In this document: positions 1 through 60,444 of the stretch, piece after piece
Position numbering within the stretch: the first letter of the stretch is position 1
Layout: each line of letters opens with the position of its first letter
Assembly (NCBI RefSeq): GCF_021028975.2
Contig: NC_059427.1
Coordinates: forward strand, 156,178,001-156,242,000
Origin: Sphaerodactylus townsendi
Lineage: Eukaryota
Length of the DNA stretch: 64,000 bases
Reading direction: 5' to 3'
Program-made: the position numbers and the translations under genes
The notes under the pieces: model-generated
Databases searched by the model: none
Told to the model about the DNA's origin: nothing
Seen by the model: only the letters and a program-made list of their open reading frames with translations

Positions 1-1144
1 TAAATTCTTTCTTTCTGCCTCTTTTTCTTTCCTGTCTCTATGCAACCCTCATCCCCACCTATACAGTCCACCACGATGCTGGTTTTCCTAACTTTGATTC
101 TTCGCCCTGTTTGTAGGGAACCCCCCCCCCCCATTCCCGCAAACCTCATTTTCAAGATGAGTAAAGATCCTATCTCTTTCACCTTCCTCCTCCCCTCCCT
201 CCCCTCCCTCCCCCACACCCTCCCCTCCCGTCTTCACCAGGCCTGATCTCTCATTGGAGCTAATGGGGACGAAAAGAATGTAAGTTATGTTCCCTTTGTC
301 TCCATAAGACTGTTGTTCTCTTTCCCCCCTCCCCTTCTGCCCTTCCCCTCCTCTCTTTCTGACTTGCTTTGTTTTAAACAGGAATACGGTTTCAGTTCAT
401 GTGCAAGGCTTTTCACGTGCATCCAGGCTCTCCAAGGACTACACGTGTAGCCCATCCTTCAGGAATGTCTCCTCGGAAGTAAACCCATTGCAATCTAAAG
501 AGGACTGATTCTCAAGCAAGGGTGCATGAGATTGCCAGCCTTTATTGCCCAGGTTACTCCCACTCGCTCCGATGGGTTTTATTCTGAGGCAAGTATGTAT
601 TGGGATAGTATAGCTTTAAGGCAAGACCCGGATCACTGGATCTCCCGCCCCCGCCCCAGAAAACCATTCCAGCAGGCTTGGCTGGTGTATATTTCTAAAC
701 AAAGACAAAATCCTACTCCTATACCCCACATTCCTTCCCCAAACTGCAAATGCTTTGTGAATGACCAGGCATATCTGTGTGTTCTTGAGCGCCTATACAT
801 TGTGTGCGTCTTACGTGTAAATTTCTGTGCATTNNNNNNNNNNNNNNNNNNNNNNNNNNNNNNNNNNNNNNNNNNNNNNNNNNNNNNNNNNNNNNNNNNN
901 NNNNNNNNNNNNNNNNNNNNNNNNNNNNNNNNNNNNNNNNNNNNNNNNNNNNNNNNNNNNNNNNNNNNNNNNNNNNNNNNNNNNNNNNNNNNNNNNNNNN
1001 NNNNNNNNNNNNNNNNNNNNNNNNNNNNNNNNNNNNNNNNNNNAAAAAGAGCTCTTATTCACAGCTTTAAAAACGACCCTTTTGTAGACGACCCACAACA
1101 AAAAAGGCAGGATACAGCGGCTTTGAAAGCAACCCGTAGGTACA

Positions 1145-6996: not shown

Positions 6997-7289
6997 CTCC
7001 CGGAAGGCGCAGTGGCAGGCAGACTTACAGCCGGTACCAAACCCTGGAGCTAGAGAAAGAGTTTCTCTTCAACCCCTATTTGACACGGAAGCGACGCATT
7101 GAGGTCTCTCATGCTCTGGGACTGACCGAGAGGCAGGTCAAGATTTGGTTCCAGAACAGGAGGATGAAATGGAAGAAAGAAAACAACAAGGATAAACTCC
7201 CCGGGGCCAGGGAAGAGGAGAAAACCGAGGAGGAAGGCAACGAGGAAGAAGAGAAAGAAGAAGAGGAGAAAGAAGAAAGCAAGGACTGA
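6997..7289 (+). CDS. HOXC8: Homeobox protein Hox-C8, exon 2 (homeodomain)
   Basis: Acceptor CTCCAG| at 6996/6997. Reads [69 protein letters not shown], then an acidic tail. TGA at 7287-7289. Confidence 0.97.
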
Positions 7290-32520: not shown

Positions 32521-33001
32521 ATGAGTTCCTACGTAGCCAATTCGTTCTATAAGCAAAATCCAAATGTCCCAGCCTATGCCATGCAAAATTATGGGAATTA
32601 TGGATCTGTGGCTGAGGTTCAGCCATCCAGGTATTGCTACAGTGGGCTGGATCTGAGCATTACATTCCCTTCATCTGGGGCTTCCAACTCTCTGAACGGT
32701 GTGGACATGTCTTCAACCCCCAGAACTAACCCCGACCGACCTTCCTGTACAGTCATGGGATCTTCAGGGCACACTTTAGGCAGAGACGACCAGGCACCTC
32801 TAAACCCAGGAATTTACAGTCAGAAAACTGGTAACAGCAACACCTCCACCACGTCGATGGAAGATAGATCTAAGAGCGGTGGGGAAATCAAGAATGAACC
32901 GGTGCAAACAGCCCAGCAAAGCGGGCAGACCCATCAGCCGCCGCCGCACCAGCCGCCTCCACAAATATATCCGTGGATGACCAAACTCCACATGAGCCAC
33001 G
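32521..33001 (+). CDS. HOXC5: Homeobox protein Hox-C5, exon 1
   Basis: Reads MSSYVANSFYKQNPNVPAYAMQNYGNYGS...PQIYPWMTKLHMSH. Donor G|GTAAAC at 33001/33002. Joins 33706-33920 to give 231 aa. Confidence 0.96.
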
Positions 33002-33705: not shown

Positions 33706-33920
33706 AAGCAGACGGCAAACGCTCCAGAACCAGCTACACTCGCTATCAAACTCTGGAACTCGAAAAAGAGTTCCATTTTAACAGATATCTCACCCGCCGG
33801 AGGCGCATAGAGATTGCCAACAACCTGTGTTTGAATGAGAGGCAAATCAAAATATGGTTTCAAAACCGGCGGATGAAATGGAAGAAAGATTCCAAAATGA
33901 AAAGCAAAGAAGCCCTCTAG
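33706..33920 (+). CDS. HOXC5: Homeobox protein Hox-C5, exon 2 (homeodomain)
   Basis: Acceptor TTTTCCAG| at 33705/33706. Reads [71 protein letters not shown]. Confidence 0.97.
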
Positions 33921-39649: not shown

Positions 39650-40205
39650 CTTATCACAATAACCCAAGGGTTATAGTGCTATGACCTGGCTCTGCTTTTT
39701 CCACCCAACTGATAACAGTCTAACCTGGAGACTTTCTCACTCTTCCTCACTCTAAGCAGAGTAGGTGCTTCACAGGCAGACAGACTGCCACACAACCGTC
39801 CAGTAGCTGCCTTTTTGGAACTGCTTGGGTCATGGTTTGGACACTGCAATGACTATTGCAGTTCATGTAGGCCAGAAACAGGCAAATTGGAGAAAGGAAA
39901 TATACAATTGGGTTTAGGATAAAAGTGTAATGGGTTTCTATTGTCATGTTCAGTAGTTTCATTCAACAAATCCCTCAGACTCTTCTCCCCCTGCCTAAGT
40001 AGAACAGCCCTGAAATCAACATGAAAAGTAGGACTGTATCTTATTTTGGCACTGTGTGACTTCTTTGGGTTTCCCAAACATCTCGGTGCCCAAGTCAGTT
40101 TAGTTATTCTAGCAATATGGCAGTATTACAACAGTCTGAAGGCACCACATGTTTTGAAGTGAACGCTTTGTCCTAGTGTGTTTCACCAGTGAATCACTCT
40201 TGAGT

Positions 40206-40425
40206 TGGGGTGTTGTGGGGTTTCTGGGCTGTGTGGCTGTGTTCCAGTAGCATTTTCTCCTGATGTTTCTCCGTCATCTGTGGCTGGCATCTTCAGAGGA
40301 TCTGAAGATGCCAGCCGCAGATGCAGGCAAAACGTCAGGAGAAAAATGCTACTAGAACATGGCCCTACAGCCCAGAAACCCTACTCACCCCAGTTATTCC
40401 GGTCCGCAGTGAAAGCCTTCAACAA
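40206..40425 (+). mobile_element. Penelope-like-element-derived fold-back insertion, copy 1
   Basis: Inverted arms of about 92 nt (40206-40297 / 40301-40392) plus a ~33-nt unpaired tail. Direct repeat CACTCTTGAGTTG at 40195-40207 and 40426-40438 (target-site duplication). Degenerate hammerhead cores on both strands. Confidence 0.8.
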
Positions 40426-43322
40426 CACTCTTGAGTTGACCTGAGAGGCTGATGAAGGTTTTGAGTGAGGTTGGAGAATGGAGGGCCACTGAGCAGCCTT
40501 TTGCAAGATTCTCTGTGGATGAAGCTGTGGAAAGTGTTTGAAGATGTTGCCAGAAATGACAGCCCAGGTAGGCAGGCTCTTTGTCTAGTACTCATAGGAC
40601 CTCAGTCAGGATGCAACGCTGCCTTCTTCTTTGTTCACCTTCAAGAAAATGGAGAAAAGTGTACAAAGCAGGATGATGATCAGGGAAGGAAAACAGATTG
40701 GCTTCAGAATAAATCCTTGAAAGAGCAAGGCTGGGTCTCTAAGTTCCTTCATTGGGGAAACAGCAATTTGGAGATTGCCCCCCCCCCCCTGAATTTCCAG
40801 CCTTCCCAGCTATAGGAAGAAAAAGTGTGATGATCAAATTTCACTCATGAAGGCACCCAATAGGCTGTCCATGAAACTTTTTCCTGTTACATCCCTGCTA
40901 TTGGCCTACAAAGCCCAGGAGAAAGACAGTGGAAATTTGTAGGAGAAAGTTTTGCTGTAGAGAATCAAGACTGAGATTCCCCTTTCTGTTGGTACCTTTT
41001 CTAGCAACTCTTTGTTTCTATGGTTTAATTCCTTGGTGATTCTCACAAGAGAAGTTCACTCCACTGATCCCTTTTGTGTGCAACTACTTTACAGTCTGTG
41101 CTCATAGATTTTTCCTCACATCATATCACCTTTGGTAAACCTCAGAAAGGGAAATGACATAACTGTGTATACCATGCTTACAGAGCCAGCAAAAATAAAT
41201 GTGCACAACAGACAATCTTTAAAGAAAAAAAGACACTTCAGCTTCCAAGGACTCCATGGGTCTGTTGTAGGTCATACATCTTTCCAGAGTTCCCTATAAA
41301 CAGCACTACAATAAGACCCATCAGCATTGAAGAACCCTCCTGCTTTAACTTGGAACGGAAGGACTTCGGTCTCAGAAGTTGTCTGTGTGTGTGTTTGTGT
41401 GTGTGAGAGAGAAAGTGTGTGTGCATATGGAAGGTTGCAAGCTTCACACTTCTTTGAAAGCAAACCCCATTGACAATTAACAAGAGGTACTTCTGAAGAA
41501 ACATCTTTAAGAAAGAAGTCTAATCAGGAGCAAAACCGATCACTTAAATTAGAATGGTTTGTGGGCTGGGCAGTTAGCAGGAAGAGCAGAAAGGAGGAAA
41601 GGTCACCCACATACAAAAGGGAGAGGAAGGGGGGGGGGGGATATGAATTGCACTTTCCATTTTCCTCCCAAGAAAATACCTTCACAGGAACCTAGTTTAT
41701 TCTCCTGTCTACCTAATTTGATTTGCATTGGCAGGGAGATTGGAATGAAAACCACCCCATTCACTTTCAACATGGTAGAGCCCTACTTTCAGAATACTGT
41801 CATTGAGTCTATTTGTGGGTGTACTTTGTGCATGCAGCGTGTGTCCTTTTGTGTAGGCACACATGTATGCTCGGTCACACATGCCTGGTTTCTACTGTAG
41901 GGAGTGCCCATCTTTGTATGTTGATAGGTTTCAGGGAACTTCTGTGAGCCTATGGGAGAAATGGAGAATGTTTACATATTGCCTATATATTGTCCCAGAA
42001 TTTTACCTGGCTAAATACGAGAAATACAGTTTTCCTGGGTTATTTCAGGCTCCCGGGCCTGAACTAAGGTCATTTTCTGCGCCAACACAGTATTTTGCAG
42101 TGGGACACATCAGCAATTCCTACTGCACACAGGACATACATTGCAACTGCCAACTCTGTTTCATTCATCAGGCATGTCCTGTGAAATGAAGCGAAGCAGG
42201 TCCCAACTCCTCAGTGGAGAAGATTTTCATAGATGCCTTTCAGTCATCTAGAGGGGGGCTGGGTGGGATACATGAAAATAAACACAAAAACCTTCTGCGT
42301 TTCTAGGTCTTAGTGTTCTGGGCTGCGGTAACCAAACTTATTAGCACTCAGAAGGCCCAATCTGTTCTTCAGAAGCTGAAGTGTGTGTGTGTTGAAGTGC
42401 TGATTGGCAAGCAACCTTTTGCTTTTCCTGCACCTCTGCTAGTCTTTGCAGGGGTGTAGTCTGAAGTTGGAATCCTCTTGGGGAAAAGGCCTCTCCAGGG
42501 CTGAGTCCACTTCTAGGTTGGGGAGGGGACAGCTGGATACACAATTTTTTCTCAAGCTAATCCAGAGATGCAACCACAGATACAGAGAAGGGAGGGGAGA
42601 GAGGGGGAAATGGGACCTGGATTTGTACCATGCTGTATCTGCAGTGTTGTCTCTTTGGAAGGAGCTGGTTGTGAGATGTGCGGCGAAAAGGGGCTCCTCC
42701 CAATGTGTACACCTGTGACTCTTTTGACTCCTGGGCCAAGCAAACATTGTAGTGGAAGATGGCTGTGGCAAATGCCCCTGGGGATGGAAAGCAGGAGAGA
42801 TAAGAGGAAGCTTCAAAACCTGAAGCATTAGCATAGCTTGCTTGTGATGACTAGTTCAACTGGACTGCGTGGTATTTGTTGGAACGCCAGAGGGGCATTT
42901 CACCCTTTCTGAACGTGTGACAGCTGATCCTATGCGCAGCCATTGTGTTGGGGCAGGAAAAAAATCCAGCAAGGCCCCAGGGCGCTTTAATTAGGCAGCA
43001 GCTGAGCTCTTTCAATGTCAGTGGAACTGGGTGTTCCTCCCAATGGTGAGAGTGCTCTGACCCTGATGAAGCCAGGTTACATTGGGTGCCCTGCTGACAC
43101 GTCACCTTGGACGCCACTGGGAATTCAAAATGCTCCTTCCCAGATCCTAACTTGGTGTTTCCCTCAAGTAGAATGTTCAGTCATTCCACGTGATGTGCAC
43201 TTGCCTGCTCAAAGAGTTGTACGTTGTCCAGCTTTTCGGACAAGAAAGTCCACAGTGAGATGAAGAAATCAGAGCTACAAGAGGTCAGCTCAAGGTTTAG
43301 GATAGAGTCAGTGTCTTATTGT

Positions 43323-43445
43323 ATTGTCAAAGGCGTTCAAGGCCGGAATCACTAGGTTGTTGCGAGTTTTCCTGGTTGTTTGGCCGTGTTCCAGTAGCTA
43401 CTGGAACATGGCCACACAACCCGGAAAACCCACAACAACCTAGTG
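43323..43445 (-). mobile_element. Penelope-like-element-derived fold-back insertion, copy 2
   Basis: 48-nt arms (43350-43397 / 43398-43445) meet at CCAGTAG|CTACTGG. The tail is on the left. Flanked by AGTGTCTTATTGT / AGTGTCTTTATTGT. Confidence 0.75.
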
Positions 43446-44756
43446 TCTTTATTGTGACTTACTGTTCACAGGGCTTTCAAATATGCTTTCGTTTGACAGT
43501 TCCGGCTCCAAATGCGATGGAGTTTGGCTTTGAATTCATATACTGAAGTCATACATCATCAACACAGGGAAAGTGCAAAATGATAATGGACACTCGAATC
43601 ACTTGGAGAAAAGAAAGATTGAAAACACACACCAATGACCATAGGCCGCGAGAGTTAGGTAGAACCTGCATAGACAGAGCTTGTGCGTGTCTCTCTTCGT
43701 TCATGTTTTACCAGTGGATCCTAGAATACTTGGTTGGAAACAAGAATTCTCGACTGGATAGGCCTTGCTTATGAGAGTGTAATTGATCTCTGATAACCTC
43801 CTTGCTGATAGCTAGAAAGATCGATAGCTCTATCCTCATACCTATCTGTAGCCAGAGACTTTCAGTTTGGTTTCCAGTTTACTGATTATTGACACCCACA
43901 GAGAGAACTTCAGCACGTGCATCTTAAAAAGCATTTACGCCAAGTATTCCATCTCTACAATCGCCGGTGGTGGGTGGTGGATTACTTTGAGAAGTGATGG
44001 TTACAGCAAGCTTGGAGTCTCTTTCTCCCATCAATTCACTCTATTCTTTCTTGGTTCTTGTTTTGTTTTGCTTCCTCATAATAGATATTTTGGGAGGTGG
44101 CTGATGCTTCTTCTTTTTTTTTACCGACCTTTCTTCCTCTGAAAGATGGAAAGGTAGTTAGAAGATTTGTGCCCCTGTGTGAAATCAAAACTATTTCCAG
44201 AATGATGGGGAGCATGCCTGTTGTGGGGACCACGTGATCCCAGCCCTCCACTCAAGGAGAGGAAATCACACATAGGTGATGATATATGTATACAAAAGCC
44301 AAATAGAGGAGAACATGTTTTGACTGACAGAAGCAATGTGACATTCACATATGTCTGCCACATTCCCATCCTCCCCCCCTCCCACCAGGCAATCCTGTCA
44401 GATTCCATTAGTGGGAGCTTGATATTTTATTTTGACTTTAAAATTGTATCACTGTGGGAAGCTCCCCCCCCCGCCCCCCTCTTTAAATGAACCATAAATA
44501 CAACCCATCTTATGCCACAGGTAGAGAGAATAGATCACAACGCTTAACTATTCATCTCATGCTCTTTCATTGGAAATATTTGCAATTCATCGACATTCTC
44601 TCTAAAATTCTTTTCCAATGGTTTGGTGGCGGCAATGGCAAGCTCAGTACAGAGAAAGAAAACCTTCGGTTTATGGGATGTATGAAAAAAACACAGGGAG
44701 TTAAAAAAGAAATGTCGGAGCGATCTGGGAGGTGCAGTCAAAACAATAGCATTGTC

Positions 44757-44840
44757 TGCTGAAGATTCCAGCCACAGATGCACTGAAACGTCAGGAGAAA
44801 ATGCTACTGGGACATGGCCATACAGCCCAGAACCCCCCAA
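44757..44840 (+). mobile_element. Penelope-like-element-derived fragment, copy 3 (single arm)
   Basis: ctgaagattccagccacagatgcactgaaacgtcaggagaaaatgctactgg..catggccatacagcccagaac, flanked by AAACAATAGCA (44741-44751) / AAATAATAGCA (44839-44849). Confidence 0.7.
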
Positions 44841-46744
44841 ATAATAGCAGATTGTGAGAAGCCAGGTGGCCTTCTCTGGGGCATTCTGTCTTTTGTAGTC
44901 ATCTTCACTAGCATAAGGTATAATTGGGTCCAAAAGAGAGGAGAATACAAGACACATGGATTCCCCTCCACCTTCCCCCCCTCCCCCGACGGTTCTCCCT
45001 CCTAGTGCTGCAGTTTGAAGCTGGGCAACATTATCAGCAAGAGACACATAAAAGGAAAAGGACTGGAGTCTTCCTGCAAACCTGGTTTGCTCACCTCCAC
45101 TGCAGTCGTCTGAAGAGCTGAACAAAGTTATATTTGCTAGCCAAGTCCAGGGCTTGAAAGAGCAAGAGGACAGACATTGCTTGCTCTATCAGTGCTTGTT
45201 CGGGGATATTATTGCACGGCCCTGGGGGCACCTGGCACCAAGACCTAAGACCTGGGGAACATAAATGGTATGGTCCATTGAAGCCACCGTACGTGATGAG
45301 CCTGGGCAGACGTTAACACAAGACAAGGTGGAGGAGCGATTTCACAGTCCAAGGGGGGCGGGATTTTACAAGGCTGAGAACTTTCACTTTTTGGCAGCAA
45401 CCCCCGTTTAATTCCCTCCCTCTTCATAGGATGCATGCATTTTTCCACTTTGAAAAAAAACAACCCTGAAATGCTAACTGTTGTGGAAGTGGAGTTCCAG
45501 AAAAATCAGCACTCCCACATCTGGGTAATTCTGTCTAGGATCTGGGTTATTTCAAGCGTCACAGAGTTGTATCCGCGTTTTCCCCAGCAAATCTTTGCAT
45601 CCGTCAACCTGTAGGCAAATCTCGATTCCTTGCAGGGACTTTTCCCGCCTCCATTCCCCTCTTCGGGATGAAAAGAGCACATGAAAGGGGTTTTATGACG
45701 TTCTGGATCTTGTCACGAAGGAGACCTTTAAAGCACTTCCTTCTGGGGGAAATGCAGGCTTCAAGATGCGTTTTAACCGCACGAGCTTTATTGGCACATC
45801 GTCTCCTCTCCTCCCCGGGCGTTGCAAAAATGAGGATATTGTGAATGGAGTTCTGTTTGTATGCCTCCCTTGGGTGTTTTATAAATTAGAACGCTAAAGA
45901 ATTTGCTCCTACAAGAAACCCATTGAGAATATTAATGAATCTGTGGGAGGGTGTTTGGAAATATCCCCCTCTTAAAATATTGTAATAAGGTTGAGTCATC
46001 TCGACGAAAAGCGGGGAACGTGCTGGAAGGATGTAAACGGGTCTACCGGCGAGGCTGTTCCTCGTGAGTTCAATAGTTCCCGTTTGATCTCAGCGGCCTA
46101 GTGTGTGTGTGTGTTTTTTCTTGGCGAGGTGGAGAAACAGCGTTGAATATATTAGATTTTATCTACTTCTCTTAAGAAATAACAAAAAAAGGGGGGGGGG
46201 GACGGAGTGTATCATCTGTGCAAACTGCATTGACTGACTGATATGTTGCTCGTATTGATTTATGATCCGGTTCTGAAAGAGCTTCTCTGTCAAATGGCGT
46301 TTCCATTCGGTCAAGAGTTGAATTGCCAGCTATCGATTTCTATATGATTGCGGCTTGCTTGACTTGCAGTTTCTGGCTCTCCGGCCAGATACCCATCTTA
46401 ACTACCCCGGGAGAATGGTAAACACATCGCTTTCTTCCCCCTCCGTGGCGTCGGCACTTTAAGCGGCTCTCTGTTGGCTTCCAGGGTGAAACGTTTTCCC
46501 CGCAGTCCACTGCTTGCCCAGTACTCAACAGCATAAACGCTGCAATACTTTCCGGATTGTCATGTTGGGGCGGGGGGGGGGGTTTGAGGAGAACCTCTTG
46601 GTCCATCGACCCATGCATCCACATGCTTAATATCTTTTCTTACTTTTTGCAGCCTAGGAAATGGGAAAACATAATTTACAGGAGGCAAAACCTAACAAGC
46701 TATATTCAGTCCATTACCCTTCTACTGCTGTCTGTCTCCCTATA

Positions 46745-47075
46745 ATACTTTACTGTACTACCGGTATACTGTACTATATTATACTATGTTATGATATGCT
46801 ACACTATGCTATGCTATACTTTACTGTGCTATACTATACTATGATATACTATACTTTATTATTCTTTTTTATTATTTGTTAAATTTGGTATACCACACAC
46901 CTCCAAAGGGTTCTGGGCGGTGTACTAGTACTTTACTGTACATAGTAAGAAGCACATAGTACTTTACTGTACTATGCTATGCTATACTATATTGTACTAT
47001 GTTATGCTATACTGTACCATACCATACTATGCAATACTATACCATGCTAGGCTATGCTATACTATGCTATACTGT
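46745..47075. repeat. Degenerate pentamer repeat (ACTAT/GCTAT)n interrupted by an L2-type tail fragment (~46855-46925, minus strand)
   Basis: Visible pentamer periodicity. The central tttattatttgttaaatttggtataccac...ggttctgggcggtgtac resembles 35287-35360. Confidence 0.7.
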
Positions 47076-47854
47076 TTGTCTATAGGTACATATACTAGGC
47101 CAAAGGCACACACATGTTTGTAGAGGTATATCTGAACTGCTGTTATTATGGCCGTGCCTGGAATTTCCTGACAAGTACAGATTTCTCCCCGTTCCTGACC
47201 CAAGGACGGAACAGTCACGTGGGAGGGGAAGCAACTACTATTGTTGGAACGGAGTATTTACTTTCTGTCCAAGGCAGGACCAGCGTTTGCCGGAGTTTTT
47301 AACATAAACAGTAACTGTAACATGAACTGTAGTGTCATCTACAAGCATTTGCAAGAGATTTAAGAAGCCTCTTGAGTATGTCTGTGGCCAAGACGCCTCT
47401 GCTGCAGCCTGCAGCCCTTCCTCAAGGCAGGAAACTTTTTTTTGCTTGCTTGGTGGCAGGAGGGGGGAGGGGCAATGGGGGGAACCTAGTATTACTGGAC
47501 GCCGCCCCCACTTTCAAAAACGACGTCGCACCCCATCCTCTAGCCTCTGCCCCCCCTCCCCAAATCGGGTCCCACCAGGTGGTGTACAATCCTACAGTAC
47601 AATCTCCCCCCCACCCCACCTCTCCAACAAAAGTGATGGGCGGCTAGACTTTTATTACAGGGGCTCTTTCCAGGCAGGAAAGGGAGGGGGCCGTAAACGC
47701 AGGGAGGTGTCCGTTTTGATCGGTCTAATCACAGGAAGTGGGGGCAGGGGAGCTGGCCGGCTCTGGGGCTGTAGATTCCACCGTCTTGCCAGCCCTTTGC
47801 TTGCCTCTCCTTTCTCAAAGGTGCCTGTGAAAAGATGAAACAACAAGAAAAGAA

Positions 47855-47896
47855 GCGGGGCGGGGCGGGGCGGGGCGGGGCGGGCGGGGCGGGGGG
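47855..47896 (+). repeat. (GGGGC)n GC-box / G-quadruplex-prone array
   Basis: Eight G-runs separated by single C residues, in a CpG-rich patch (~47660-48300). Confidence 0.8.
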
Positions 47897-48308
47897 AGAG
47901 AAGAGAAGAGGAAAAGTGGCTGGAAAGGGTGGTTGGGTGCAATAAACTCCCCCGCTGCTCTGGTGTGGAAAGATTGCCGCTCATCCAAGCGGAGCCTTTA
48001 AACAAACACTTGTATCTCCTGCCTGGAACCCCAGACGAGTTTATTTGTAGTTTTCGACTTCTCGGAGGCTACTACGGCTAATAAGCAGAGCCCCCTTAGT
48101 GGCGAAGATGGATGCGCCAGGCGGGCGCGCCAGCCTTCCTCCCCCGGACAGTAACTTTATTTCGCGCTAAACAGCGGGGTTAAAGCACAGACAGGGACCC
48201 TCCGGAGACAGCAGGCCAGGCCCAGCTTCTCTGGAGGAGGCTGGGAAGAGGCCGAGGCAGGCTTCAGACCAGAGAGAATGTCTCCTCCTCGACTGAGATC
48301 TAGGAGAT

Positions 48309-48513
48309 CTGGGGTGTTGTGGGGTTTCCGGGCTGTATGGCCGTGTTCCAGCAGCATTTTCTCCTGACGTTTCGCCTGCATCTGATATCCTCTGAAGATG
48401 TCAGCCGCAGATGCAGGCGAAACGTCAGGAAAAAATGCTGCTGGAACACGGCCATACAGCCTAGAAACCCCACAACACCCCAGTGATTCCGGCCGTGAAA
48501 GCCTTCTACGTTG
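48309..48513 (+). mobile_element. Penelope-like-element-derived fold-back insertion, copy 4 (youngest)
   Basis: 76-nt arms (48309-48384 / 48408-48483) differ at 3 positions. Tail tgattccggccgtgaaagccttc. Target-site duplication AGGAGATC at 48302-48309 and 48514-48521. Confidence 0.85.
48388..48430 (+). ncRNA. Minimal type I hammerhead ribozyme motif (Penelope type)
   Basis: Stem I UCCU/AGGA, core CUGAAGA (48392-48398), stem II GUC...GGC, GAAA (48419-48422), palindromic ACGU stem III. Predicted cleavage after GUC at 48426. Confidence 0.7.
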
Positions 48514-48865
48514 AGGAGATCGTTTGTCGTCGTCGACCAGTCAAAAGGGAATTGTCCCCTCTTCTCCGGCCGTTGCTTTAGGGCTACAGCGGAACAGCGA
48601 GAGGCAGAACCCCACTTTGCCAAACCCTTGGACCTGGCATCTCAGCAAGTCCGCTGCCAGCGAAACAGACACACAGACAGACACAAACCCAGGCTGCAAA
48701 TCTGCCTCCCTCCTTGAAGCGATGAAGGCAGAGAGAGCCCTGCAAAGAGCGGGGTCTGTTGAAGAGGGGCGATCGGTACACCTGATCGCAACGTATTTTA
48801 CATCAAATAACGAGATGAAAACGGGTTTCTTCTGCGAAGCTGCCTAGGACGGATTCATGGGCCTG

Positions 48866-48970
48866 GGTGGATGGAGTGTATACCCTGCATGTTAGAACGT
48901 CATCTATAAATGTAACTATCATCTAGCTAGCTATCTAGCTAGCAATTTAACTAGCTATCTAGCTAGTAAC

Positions 48971-49014
<44 letters not shown>

Positions 49015-49186
49015 CTCTCTCTATTAATAAATCAATCAAAACAGCAATAGGTGGATGGAGTGTATACCTTGCATGTTAGAACGTCATCTATATATGTATC
49101 TATCATCTAGCTATCTATCTAGATAGTTGTCCAGCGCTCGCTCTCTCTCTCTCTCTCTCTCAATAAATCAATCAAATTAGCAATAG
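48866..49186. repeat. Two-unit tandem duplication (~185 + ~137 bp) containing (CTAG/CTAT)n and (CT)n
   Basis: GGTGGATGGAGTGTATACCYTGCATGTTAGAACGTCATCTATA starts at 48866 and at 49050. Both units end AATAAATCAATCAAA..AGCAATAG. Confidence 0.9.
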
Positions 49187-56979: not shown

Positions 56980-57062
56980 GTCCTCTATATGTCCCCTGCA
57001 GAATCGAATTCGTGTGCTGTGCCTCAAGCACAGATTCGTCTCTAGGGGAGTATATGGAGGAT
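56980..57062 (+). ncRNA. mir-10c: miR-10 family precursor (HoxC paralogue, miR-10c) with divergent 5p arm
   Basis: Hairpin GTCCTCTATATG-TCCCCTGCAGAATCGAATTCGTG-loop-ACAGATTCGTCTCTAGGGGAGTATATGGAGGAT aligns end to end with miR-10 precursors. It sits at the canonical position, about 2 kb upstream of Hox4. Confidence 0.9.
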
Positions 57063-59750: not shown

Positions 59751-60088
59751 AAGCTAGTCTGGGCAGCCCCAGCCATGTGGTTCGTTCTGTTATGTATGCG
59801 TGAAACTCCGAAGGCTTTGCGAGGGGGTGCATAAATAATTCAGGCTCTTCCCAAGCCAGGGAAACCCCTTCTTATTAGAAGAGAAAGTCTTGGGTTCTTT
59901 ATAACCCGTTTAGCTGATGACTTCTCTCTCTCTCTCTCTCTCCCTCTTTTTCCCTCCCCCTTTCTCTCGAGCCACTGGAGAGCTCTCTTTCTCTCGTTGT
60001 GCACCTCTCTGTCGCCGCGCCTTCGCCTTTCTCCCTGTATTCATGCGACCCTTTGGGGGTTTTTTTCTCCCTTTCCCCTCCTTCCCAG

Positions 60089-60444
60089 TGAACCCCAATT
60101 ACAATGGAGGCGAGCCCAAACGATCCCGGACTGCCTACACGAGACAGCAGGTCTTGGAACTGGAGAAGGAATTCCACTATAACAGATACCTGACTAGGCG
60201 GCGGCGCATCGAGATCGCCCATTCCTTGTGTCTGTCGGAGAGACAGATCAAGATCTGGTTTCAGAACAGGCGGATGAAGTGGAAAAAAGACCACCGGCTG
60301 CCCAACACCAAAGTGCGGTCGACGGCGCCGGCCAATTCCTCCGGCAGCTCGATCCCGGCTTCTTCCAACCCCGTGGCAGCCAGTGAAGAGCAGTCGCAAA
60401 GCTCATCTCAGGACCAACGGCCAGAGGATATTACAAGGTTATAA
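60089..60444 (+). CDS. HOXC4: Homeobox protein Hox-C4, exon 2 (homeodomain)
   Basis: Acceptor CTTCCCAG| at 60088/60089. Reads [75 protein letters not shown]...EDITRL*. Confidence 0.97.

What the first reader, a model, noticed from the sequence alone, without database searches (positions are those of the whole stretch)
40195..48521. Four related Penelope-end insertions in 8 kb, with a shared terminus and variable fold-back points
Seen: copies at 40206-40425, 43323-43445 (opposite orientation), 44757-44840 and 48309-48513, each with its own 8-13 bp direct flank. In the three palindromic copies the inverted arm stops at the same place, about 30 nt short of the common end (...attccggccgtgaaagccttc...). 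The turning point differs: at the hammerhead 5' edge, before the hammerhead, or asymmetric. No RT or GIY-YIG coding sequence is present. Inference: these are independent target-primed insertions in which the cDNA snapped back, producing MITE-looking hairpins from a retroelement. They may form a non-autonomous hairpin family. The 48-92 bp stems could yield dsRNA for ADAR or Dicer, and copies could pair with one another in pre-mRNA.
Basis: partly seen in the sequence, partly recalled or inferred. Interest (0 to 1): 0.7.

Follow-up and report, generated by a model that had tools for sequence, protein, structure and literature searches.

The report
Twin-primed Penelope palindromes in lizard HoxC
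These four short inserts between two Hox genes are truncated copies of a very common Penelope-type jumping gene (about 100,000 copies estimated); the mirror-image shape is already described, and the copies likely form when both strands of the cut DNA start copying one RNA at two sites about 30 bases apart, rather than by one copy folding back on itself.

Summary
The four copies, their duplications and the shared arm ends are real. They are 5'-truncated insertions of a Penelope/Poseidon-type retroelement (about 100,000 copies estimated), lying between HoxC5 and a Hox4-like gene. Longer copies join the same arm to an RT plus GIY-YIG-like ORF. An inverted arm with a one-sided 30-nt tail is published Penelope anatomy, and the two arm ends (+85, +112 to +118) fit the two RT start sites mapped in vitro for the anole element.

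Simple snap-back fails: the tail-less arm reaches further 5' in 38 of 67 unselected pairs, the tailed arm in 14. One tail per insertion is almost strict: 133 of 141 pairs, none with two; genome-wide, 5 two-tailed hits against 828 one-sided. Arms share source variants (35 of 36). The best model is two cDNAs primed from both target strands on one RNA, often running off its 5' end, then joined head to head.

The four copies have different junctions, so they are not one amplified mini-family. No empty site or RNA evidence was obtained. This scan has reported the twin-priming reading before, in at least 12 other genomes.

The parts
40195..40207 (+). Copy 1 left target-site duplication (13 bp), overlapping the arm start by 2 nt
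40206..40305 (-). Copy 1 inverted, tail-less arm, element +85 back to -15
40301..40429 (+). Copy 1 direct arm with tail, element -7 to +118; shares TCTGA (40301-40305) with the inverted arm
40426..40438 (+). Copy 1 right target-site duplication
43310..43322 (+). Copy 2 left duplication (8 bp exact, 13-14 bp with one indel)
43321..43398 (-). Copy 2 tailed arm, element +40 to +117; hammerhead absent
43397..43445 (+). Copy 2 tail-less arm, element +40 to about +84/88; zero-loop junction with a 2-nt GC overlap
43442..43455 (+). Copy 2 right duplication
44741..44751 (+). Copy 3 left duplication (11 bp with one mismatch; 7 bp exact)
44752..44756 (-). Possible 5-nt stub of an inverted tail in copy 3 (weak, could be chance)
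   Evidence: longer stubs of this kind in other single-arm copies
44759..44838 (+). Copy 3 single tail-less arm from element -6, with a short deletion near its end
44839..44849 (+). Copy 3 right duplication
48302..48309 (+). Copy 4 left duplication (8 bp)
48309..48384 (-). Copy 4 inverted, tail-less arm, element +86 back to +11
48387..48513 (+). Copy 4 direct arm with tail, element -11 to about +112; ORF start ATG at 48398
48388..48430 (+). Minimal hammerhead motif in copy 4 (TCCT, CTGAAGA, GAAAC-GTC, AGGA), read by eye; no Rfam hammerhead match
48514..48521 (+). Copy 4 right duplication
32521..33000 (+). Context: HoxC5 exon 1 (best hits named Hox-C5, up to 87% identity); its homeobox lies near 33855
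59914..60444 (+). Context: homeobox exon of the next Hox gene (Hox4-like by recalled N-terminal motif)

Best explanation
The four inserts are 5'-truncated copies of a Penelope/Poseidon-type retroelement, and each palindrome likely arose at its own insertion from two cDNAs primed on opposite strands of one staggered cut. Shown here: parentage, variable 7-18 bp duplications, one tailed and one tail-less end per insertion, either arm the longer, arms sharing source variants, and arm ends piling up about 28-30 nt downstream of each subfamily's TATA box. Shown in vitro by others for the anole relative: both strands are cut and extended, and RT starts at two internal sites. Inferred: (1) a dimeric protein on one RNA places one primer at about +85 and the other at +112 to +118, so the sites exclude each other; (2) both cDNAs often run off the RNA 5' end (about -13 in this subfamily) or stop earlier; (3) the two 3' ends are joined through 1-6 nt of microhomology or short filler, sometimes helped by a local fold-back; (4) an apparently single-armed copy such as copy 3 is the case where one cDNA stayed very short. 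The copies are most likely dead by-products tolerated in a HoxC spacer.
For: Parent: a 553-aa frame with RT (Pfam RVT_1, E 7e-12) in a copy that also carries the arm at its ORF start and ends in a tail-less arm. Its endonuclease part aligns at 42% with a Pfam GIY-YIG domain; relatives include Anolis proteins at 86%. Arm ends: +78..+89 and +109..+123 in 56 of 76 unselected pairs with a clear duplication; the paper maps RT starts at +111..118 and says the tail lies between two start sites. One tail per pair: 133 of 141 pairs, 0 with two tails, and all 8 'no tail' calls traced to cut-off, broken or mis-paired arms. Genome-wide, GATC-centred palindromes give 828 one-sided matches and 5 two-sided loci; 2 of the 5 in fact end tail-less further out and 3 show no clear duplication. 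Arm length: tail-less arm further 5' in 38 of 67, tailed arm in 14, within 3 nt in 15 (22 against 6 at more than 20 nt). Same source: the +84 variant agrees in 35 of 36 pairs; 27 rare variants are shared by both arms against about 5 expected in 121 pairs. Zero-loop junctions: GATC 1278 exact and window copy 2. Run-off: subfamily A arm ends at -17..-5 in 33 of 78 and at -52..-40 in 0 of 78; B/C at -52..-40 in 16 of 56; TATA boxes at about -43 and -73. About seven single-arm copies carry a short inverted stub of the opposite end type (read by eye).
Against: All genomic inference; no intermediate was seen. In vitro the RT start sites did not differ between strands and coupling was not tested. Shared arm variants could also come from two sister RNAs or from later gene conversion. 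Junction sequence cannot separate direct end-joining from a fold-back that then anneals to the second cDNA. 36 of 67 junctions carry filler and 7 have apparent overlaps above 6 nt, partly alignment run-through at a natural hairpin. One complex junction in subfamily B recurs at 6 of 20 loci with unique flanks and in both tail polarities, which suggests some junctions are inherited from a template. One single-arm copy (L048) may be two-tailed. The start site is inferred from motifs and copy ends only. 15 of 82 pairs were dropped before the length count.
Confidence: 0.75

Rival explanations
1. One cDNA folds back and copies itself, and the tail is left or trimmed on one side when the hairpin is resolved. 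Self-priming on an antisense template (PMC3846280) and endonuclease trimming of the tail (PMC8557442) are published versions.
For: Copy 1's junction is the product expected from folding at TCAGA/TCTGA with a 3-nt loop, and it recurs 571 times. Six of 20 such loci carry short templated pieces at the junction. Arms share variants.
Against: The tail-less arm is the longer one in 38 of 67 pairs, at times by hundreds of bases. At copy 1's junction the tail is on the looped arm in 7 and on the other arm in 9 of 20 loci, 4 unclear. Zero-loop palindromes are commoner. Both ends match sense-RNA RT start sites.
Confidence: 0.08
2. The palindromes are a non-autonomous family, or inherit their junctions from palindromic master loci that are transcribed and copied as units.
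For: Junctions recur exactly: 1278, 571 and 371 times. A complex subfamily-B junction occurs with unique flanks in 6 of 20 loci.
Against: The window's four junctions all differ; two are unique or nearly so. No junction pair of positions recurred more than twice among 70 unselected pairs. Recurrent junctions span subfamilies and sit at the inferred RNA 5' end. 14 of 20 copies of the B junction are one insertion carried along inside a host repeat. All four copies end before +172, the RNA length needed in vitro.
Confidence: 0.1
3. Two primers act, but on two separate RNAs held by an asymmetric dimer, each subunit having a fixed start site.
For: A predicted dimer; one-tail rule and variable arm lengths fit equally well. 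One or two pairs look mixed in subfamily (L281, L013).
Against: 35 of 36 pairs agree at +84 although both variants are common, and rare variants are shared. That needs sister RNAs from one locus every time.
Confidence: 0.06
4. A MITE or other DNA transposon with terminal inverted repeats.
For: Hairpin shape and direct flanks.
Against: Duplications of 7-18 bp, asymmetric ends, variable size, and an arm continuous with an RT ORF.
Confidence: 0.01

Closest known systems
Poseidon element of Anolis carolinensis (PAc; PMC11167929, parts 1-2 of 4 read)
   Same: ORF starts inside the hammerhead, with the cut 26 nt past the start codon (here GTC ends at +29). RT start at +111..118 matches the tail end. 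Tail lies between two start sites. AT-rich targets (72% AT duplications).
   Different: The parts read do not discuss inverted insertions or coupling of the two sites. Sequence identity to PAc itself was not measured: two arm motifs were not found in the three supplements held as text.
Endonuclease-positive Penelope-like elements with inverted pLTR and one-sided tail (PMC8557442, PMC3846280; passages read)
   Same: Head-to-head inverted 5'-truncated copy, 30-40 nt tail at one end, 8-10 bp duplications, palindromes at the junction.
   Different: Those papers propose self-priming or endonuclease resolution. Here the insertions are minimal (80-220 bp) and the one-tail rule is counted.
LINE-1 twin priming
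   Same: Both target strands prime on one RNA and the two cDNAs are joined by microhomology.
   Different: In LINE-1 the second primer lands upstream, giving a non-overlapping inversion. Here both cDNAs cover the same region, giving a palindrome.
Non-LTR retrozymes (10.64898/2026.07.22.740005, PMC4209133; passages read)
   Same: Derived from Penelope pLTRs; carry hammerheads; non-coding.
   Different: Retrozymes are tandem direct repeats; the window copies are inverted pairs or single arms, and copy 2 has no hammerhead.

Membership tests
Endonuclease-positive Penelope-like element | Parent ORF with RT and C-terminal GIY-YIG endonuclease, continuous with the terminal repeat | tested here: met
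   RVT_1 in L163 and L164; arm downstream of the ORF in most of 24 long loci. The endonuclease did not hit Pfam GIY-YIG directly but aligns at 42% with a domain that does.
Endonuclease-positive Penelope-like element | pLTR with a minimal hammerhead overlapping the ORF start | tested here: met
   Motif read by eye at 48388-48430, geometry as; arm translates as the ORF start. No Rfam hammerhead match.
Endonuclease-positive Penelope-like element | 30-40 nt tail at one end; inverted 5'-truncated copy | tested here: met
   133 of 141 pairs; 3 of 4 window copies.
Endonuclease-positive Penelope-like element | Variable-length target-site duplication | tested here: met
   7-18 bp, 41 of 56 at 11-15 bp.
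Endonuclease-positive Penelope-like element | Hammerhead self-cleavage | not testable with these tools
   No significant pile-up of copy ends at the cut site (7 of 38, p 0.17).
Penelope/Poseidon clade | Phylogenetic placement of the RT with Poseidon | not tested
   No tree built; 86% identity to unnamed Anolis proteins and matching landmarks only.
MITE / DNA transposon | Fixed short duplication, symmetric terminal inverted repeats, uniform size | tested here: not met
Amplified non-autonomous family | Copies share one junction and size | tested here: not met
   Four different junctions in the window; genome counts 571, 4 and 1.
Amplified non-autonomous family | A subset elsewhere inherits a junction from a master | tested here: inconclusive
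   Subfamily-B complex junction, 6 of 20 loci with unique flanks.
Non-LTR retrozyme | Tandem direct repeats of a hammerhead unit | tested here: not met
   No tandem in the window copies.

The most novel reading that the evidence does not exclude
Penelope elements integrate by coupled twin priming: one protein dimer on one RNA starts reverse transcription from both target strands at two mutually exclusive sites about 30 nt apart. This single step would explain the tail, the inverted pLTR and the mass of short palindromes, and the genome's copies would map the element's RNA start. The close anole relative already works in vitro, so the model can be tested directly.
Probability: 0.65. Interest if true: 0.6.

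Novelty: new member of a known kind. Interest (0 to 1): 0.35.

Why it matters
How Penelope-like elements make their tandem and inverted insertions is described as undefined (PMC8557442). The near-strict one-tail rule, the free choice of which arm is longer and the shared arm variants narrow the mechanism to something the existing anole in vitro system can test. The four copies themselves are ordinary members of a family of about 100,000, and transposons in squamate Hox clusters are known (PMC6791295). Such palindromes can be mistaken for MITEs or microRNA hairpins.

Tried and rejected
Empty sites: contigs of public runs were laid on all four copies. In organisms A, B and C they run from unique flank into the copies, so the insertions seem shared; no contig skipping a whole copy was listed. 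The joint tables were cut and swamped by repeats, so this is inconclusive. Contig breaks beside copy 4 in run X8 fall on GATC sites and look like a library effect. Expression: no RNA holder listed, so A-to-I editing and small RNAs were not examined. Rfam microRNA matches over the copies are below gathering scores and reflect generic hairpins. An apparent systematic arm difference in the top hits was set aside as query bias. Arm lengths were discarded (references with inverted stubs). Searches used one reference with a deletion; lengths were redone. An apparent pile-up at the hammerhead cut (p 0.003) vanished after that fix (p 0.17). No excess of shared A-to-G changes (4 of 27). No solved structure matched the endonuclease part. 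No Atlas result was obtained, and one Hox-cluster paper was not held.
Full report
Observation. Counting from the element's ATG (48398 in copy 4), the palindromic copies are: copy 1, -15..+85 inverted and -7..+118 direct; copy 2, +40..+117 and +40..+84/88; copy 4, +11..+86 and -11..+112. Copy 3 is one tail-less arm. Each has its own duplication (13, 8 or 13-14, 7 or 11, and 8 bp). No RT or endonuclease remnant is in the window.

Setting. The window is part of a lizard-type HoxC cluster. Four homeoboxes lie on the plus strand, and the gene at 32.5 kb has best hits named Hox-C5. The copies sit between it and a mir-10-like hairpin plus a Hox4-like gene; the names C4, C6 and C8 rest on recalled motifs. 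Transposons in squamate Hox clusters are known (PMC6791295, passages).

Parent element. Following longer copies upstream leads to an endonuclease frame and a 553-aa frame with an RT domain. The same locus carries the arm at its ORF start and ends in a tail-less arm. The endonuclease missed Pfam's GIY-YIG model directly but aligns at 42% with a domain that passes it. Close relatives are Anolis proteins at 86%. The arm is therefore the end of the pLTR plus the start of the ORF, and the tail is ORF sequence.

Abundance. 120 evenly spaced 10-kb stretches held 67 insertions, about 100,000 genome-wide; one stretch held four. One exact 31-mer occurs 13,708 times. Four copies per 64 kb is average. Their clumping has a Poisson chance of 0.0013 for a fixed 8.3 kb, but the stretch was picked afterwards and probably marks a tolerant spacer (inference).

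What is known. An inverted 5'-truncated copy with a 30-40 nt tail at one end is standard Penelope anatomy (PMC8557442 and PMC3846280, passages). For the anole element, purified protein cuts and extends both strands, is predicted to dimerise, starts RT at two internal sites with the tail between them, and needs RNA up to +172 (PMC11167929, parts 1-2 of 4). Our arm ends, +78..+89 and +109..+123 in 56 of 76 unselected pairs with a clear duplication, fit those sites. Duplications are 7-18 bp and 72% AT. Searches pairing Penelope with twin priming, both strands or head-to-head priming listed no paper stating the coupled model; most subscription papers are not searched.

Test of snap-back. A tail-primed cDNA that folds back can only give a second arm that starts at or inside its own end, and a tail-less cDNA cannot supply a tail. 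Among 82 unselected pairs, 67 were kept after dropping 15 with broken ends or central gaps over 30 nt. The tail-less arm reaches further 5' in 38, the tailed arm in 14, and 15 are within 3 nt. Window copy 1 is such a case. Its junction recurs 571 times; in 20 loci the tail lay on the looped arm in 7, on the other in 9, and 4 were unclear. Zero-loop palindromes, hard to make by folding, are commoner: 1278 at GATC, and copy 2 is one.

One tail per insertion. Of 141 head-to-head pairs, 133 had one tailed and one tail-less arm and none had two tails. The 8 others were cut off, broken, mis-paired or partly tailed. Seven of the 133 have a damaged short arm and say little, and a few loci are duplicates. 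Single-arm copies are about half tailed (56 of 117), so free choice would give about a quarter two-tailed. Genome-wide, GATC-centred palindromes gave 828 one-sided matches and 5 two-sided loci. Two of those five end tail-less further out and three show no clear duplication. About seven single-arm copies carry a short inverted stub of the opposite end type (by eye); copy 3 may have a 5-nt one, and L048 may be an exception.

One template. The arms of a pair agree at the common +84 variant in 35 of 36 cases (includes selected sets). Arm-to-arm divergence in the random set is 0.11 against 0.22 shuffled (24 pairs). 27 rare variants are shared against about 5 expected. Sister RNAs or gene conversion could also give this.

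Where the arms turn. Subfamily A ends pile up at -17..-5 (33 of 78) and B/C at -52..-40 (16 of 56; A has 0 of 78 there), each about 28-30 nt past a TATA box. Tandem units in L320 and L321 also restart at -12 to -14. So the 'hammerhead 5' edge' is probably the RNA's 5' end, where two identical cDNA ends can pair through GATC or TCTGA. A second lead, stops at the ribozyme cut, did not hold (7 of 38, p 0.17).

Non-autonomous family. The window's junctions all differ; copy 2's occurs at 4 loci and copy 4's once. All four end before +172. One subfamily-B junction occurs 371 times: 14 of 20 loci are one insertion carried in a host repeat, but 6 have unique flanks and both polarities. Inherited junctions therefore remain possible for a subset.

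dsRNA. Copies 2 and 4 would form very stable hairpins if transcribed. Whether they are transcribed, edited or diced is open.

Verdict. Real, and of a known kind. The coupled twin-priming model is the part worth testing. This scan has reached it before on other genomes; those notes are unchecked and add no independent support.

Noticed in passing
window 4900-60444: The window is a HoxC cluster segment: four plus-strand homeoboxes near 7146, 28722, 33855 and 60256. All four Penelope copies fall in the spacer after HoxC5.
   Followed up: partly
window 56985-57058: A mir-10-like hairpin scores below Rfam's gathering score (35.8 against 47.5) but folds well (z -7.5). Its 5' arm differs from the usual mir-10 seed as recalled; it may be a diverged copy or a sequence error.
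   Followed up: partly
L320:205-975 and L321:195-675: Insertions in which the tail-less side holds tandem units: three of about 182 nt (element -13 to about +169) and one of about 254 nt. They look like template jumps at the RNA 5' end or retrozyme-like repeats; +169 is close to the +172 boundary found in vitro.
   Followed up: partly
L291-L309, L044, L078: One older Penelope palindrome sits inside a host repeat that later spread, so the same insertion and flanks recur at many loci (14 of 20 sampled).
   Followed up: partly
L290, L292, L294, L298, L299, L305, L149: A complex subfamily-B junction with the same filler recurs with unique flanks and in both tail polarities, hinting at junctions inherited from a master.
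   Followed up: partly
window 47500-48700: Copy 4 lies in a CpG-rich stretch (observed/expected 0.5-0.7) and keeps 11 CpGs; its arms are 96% identical, yet it seems shared with organisms B and C, so it may look younger than it is.
   Followed up: partly
window 46751-47104 and 48866-49169: A degenerate TATAC-type tandem repeat, and a 77-nt direct repeat next to CT microsatellites.
   Followed up: no
L164:1874-3199: The parent ORF is 86% identical to Anolis proteins while most other hits are near 60%; strong conservation or horizontal transfer among lizards was not examined.
   Followed up: no
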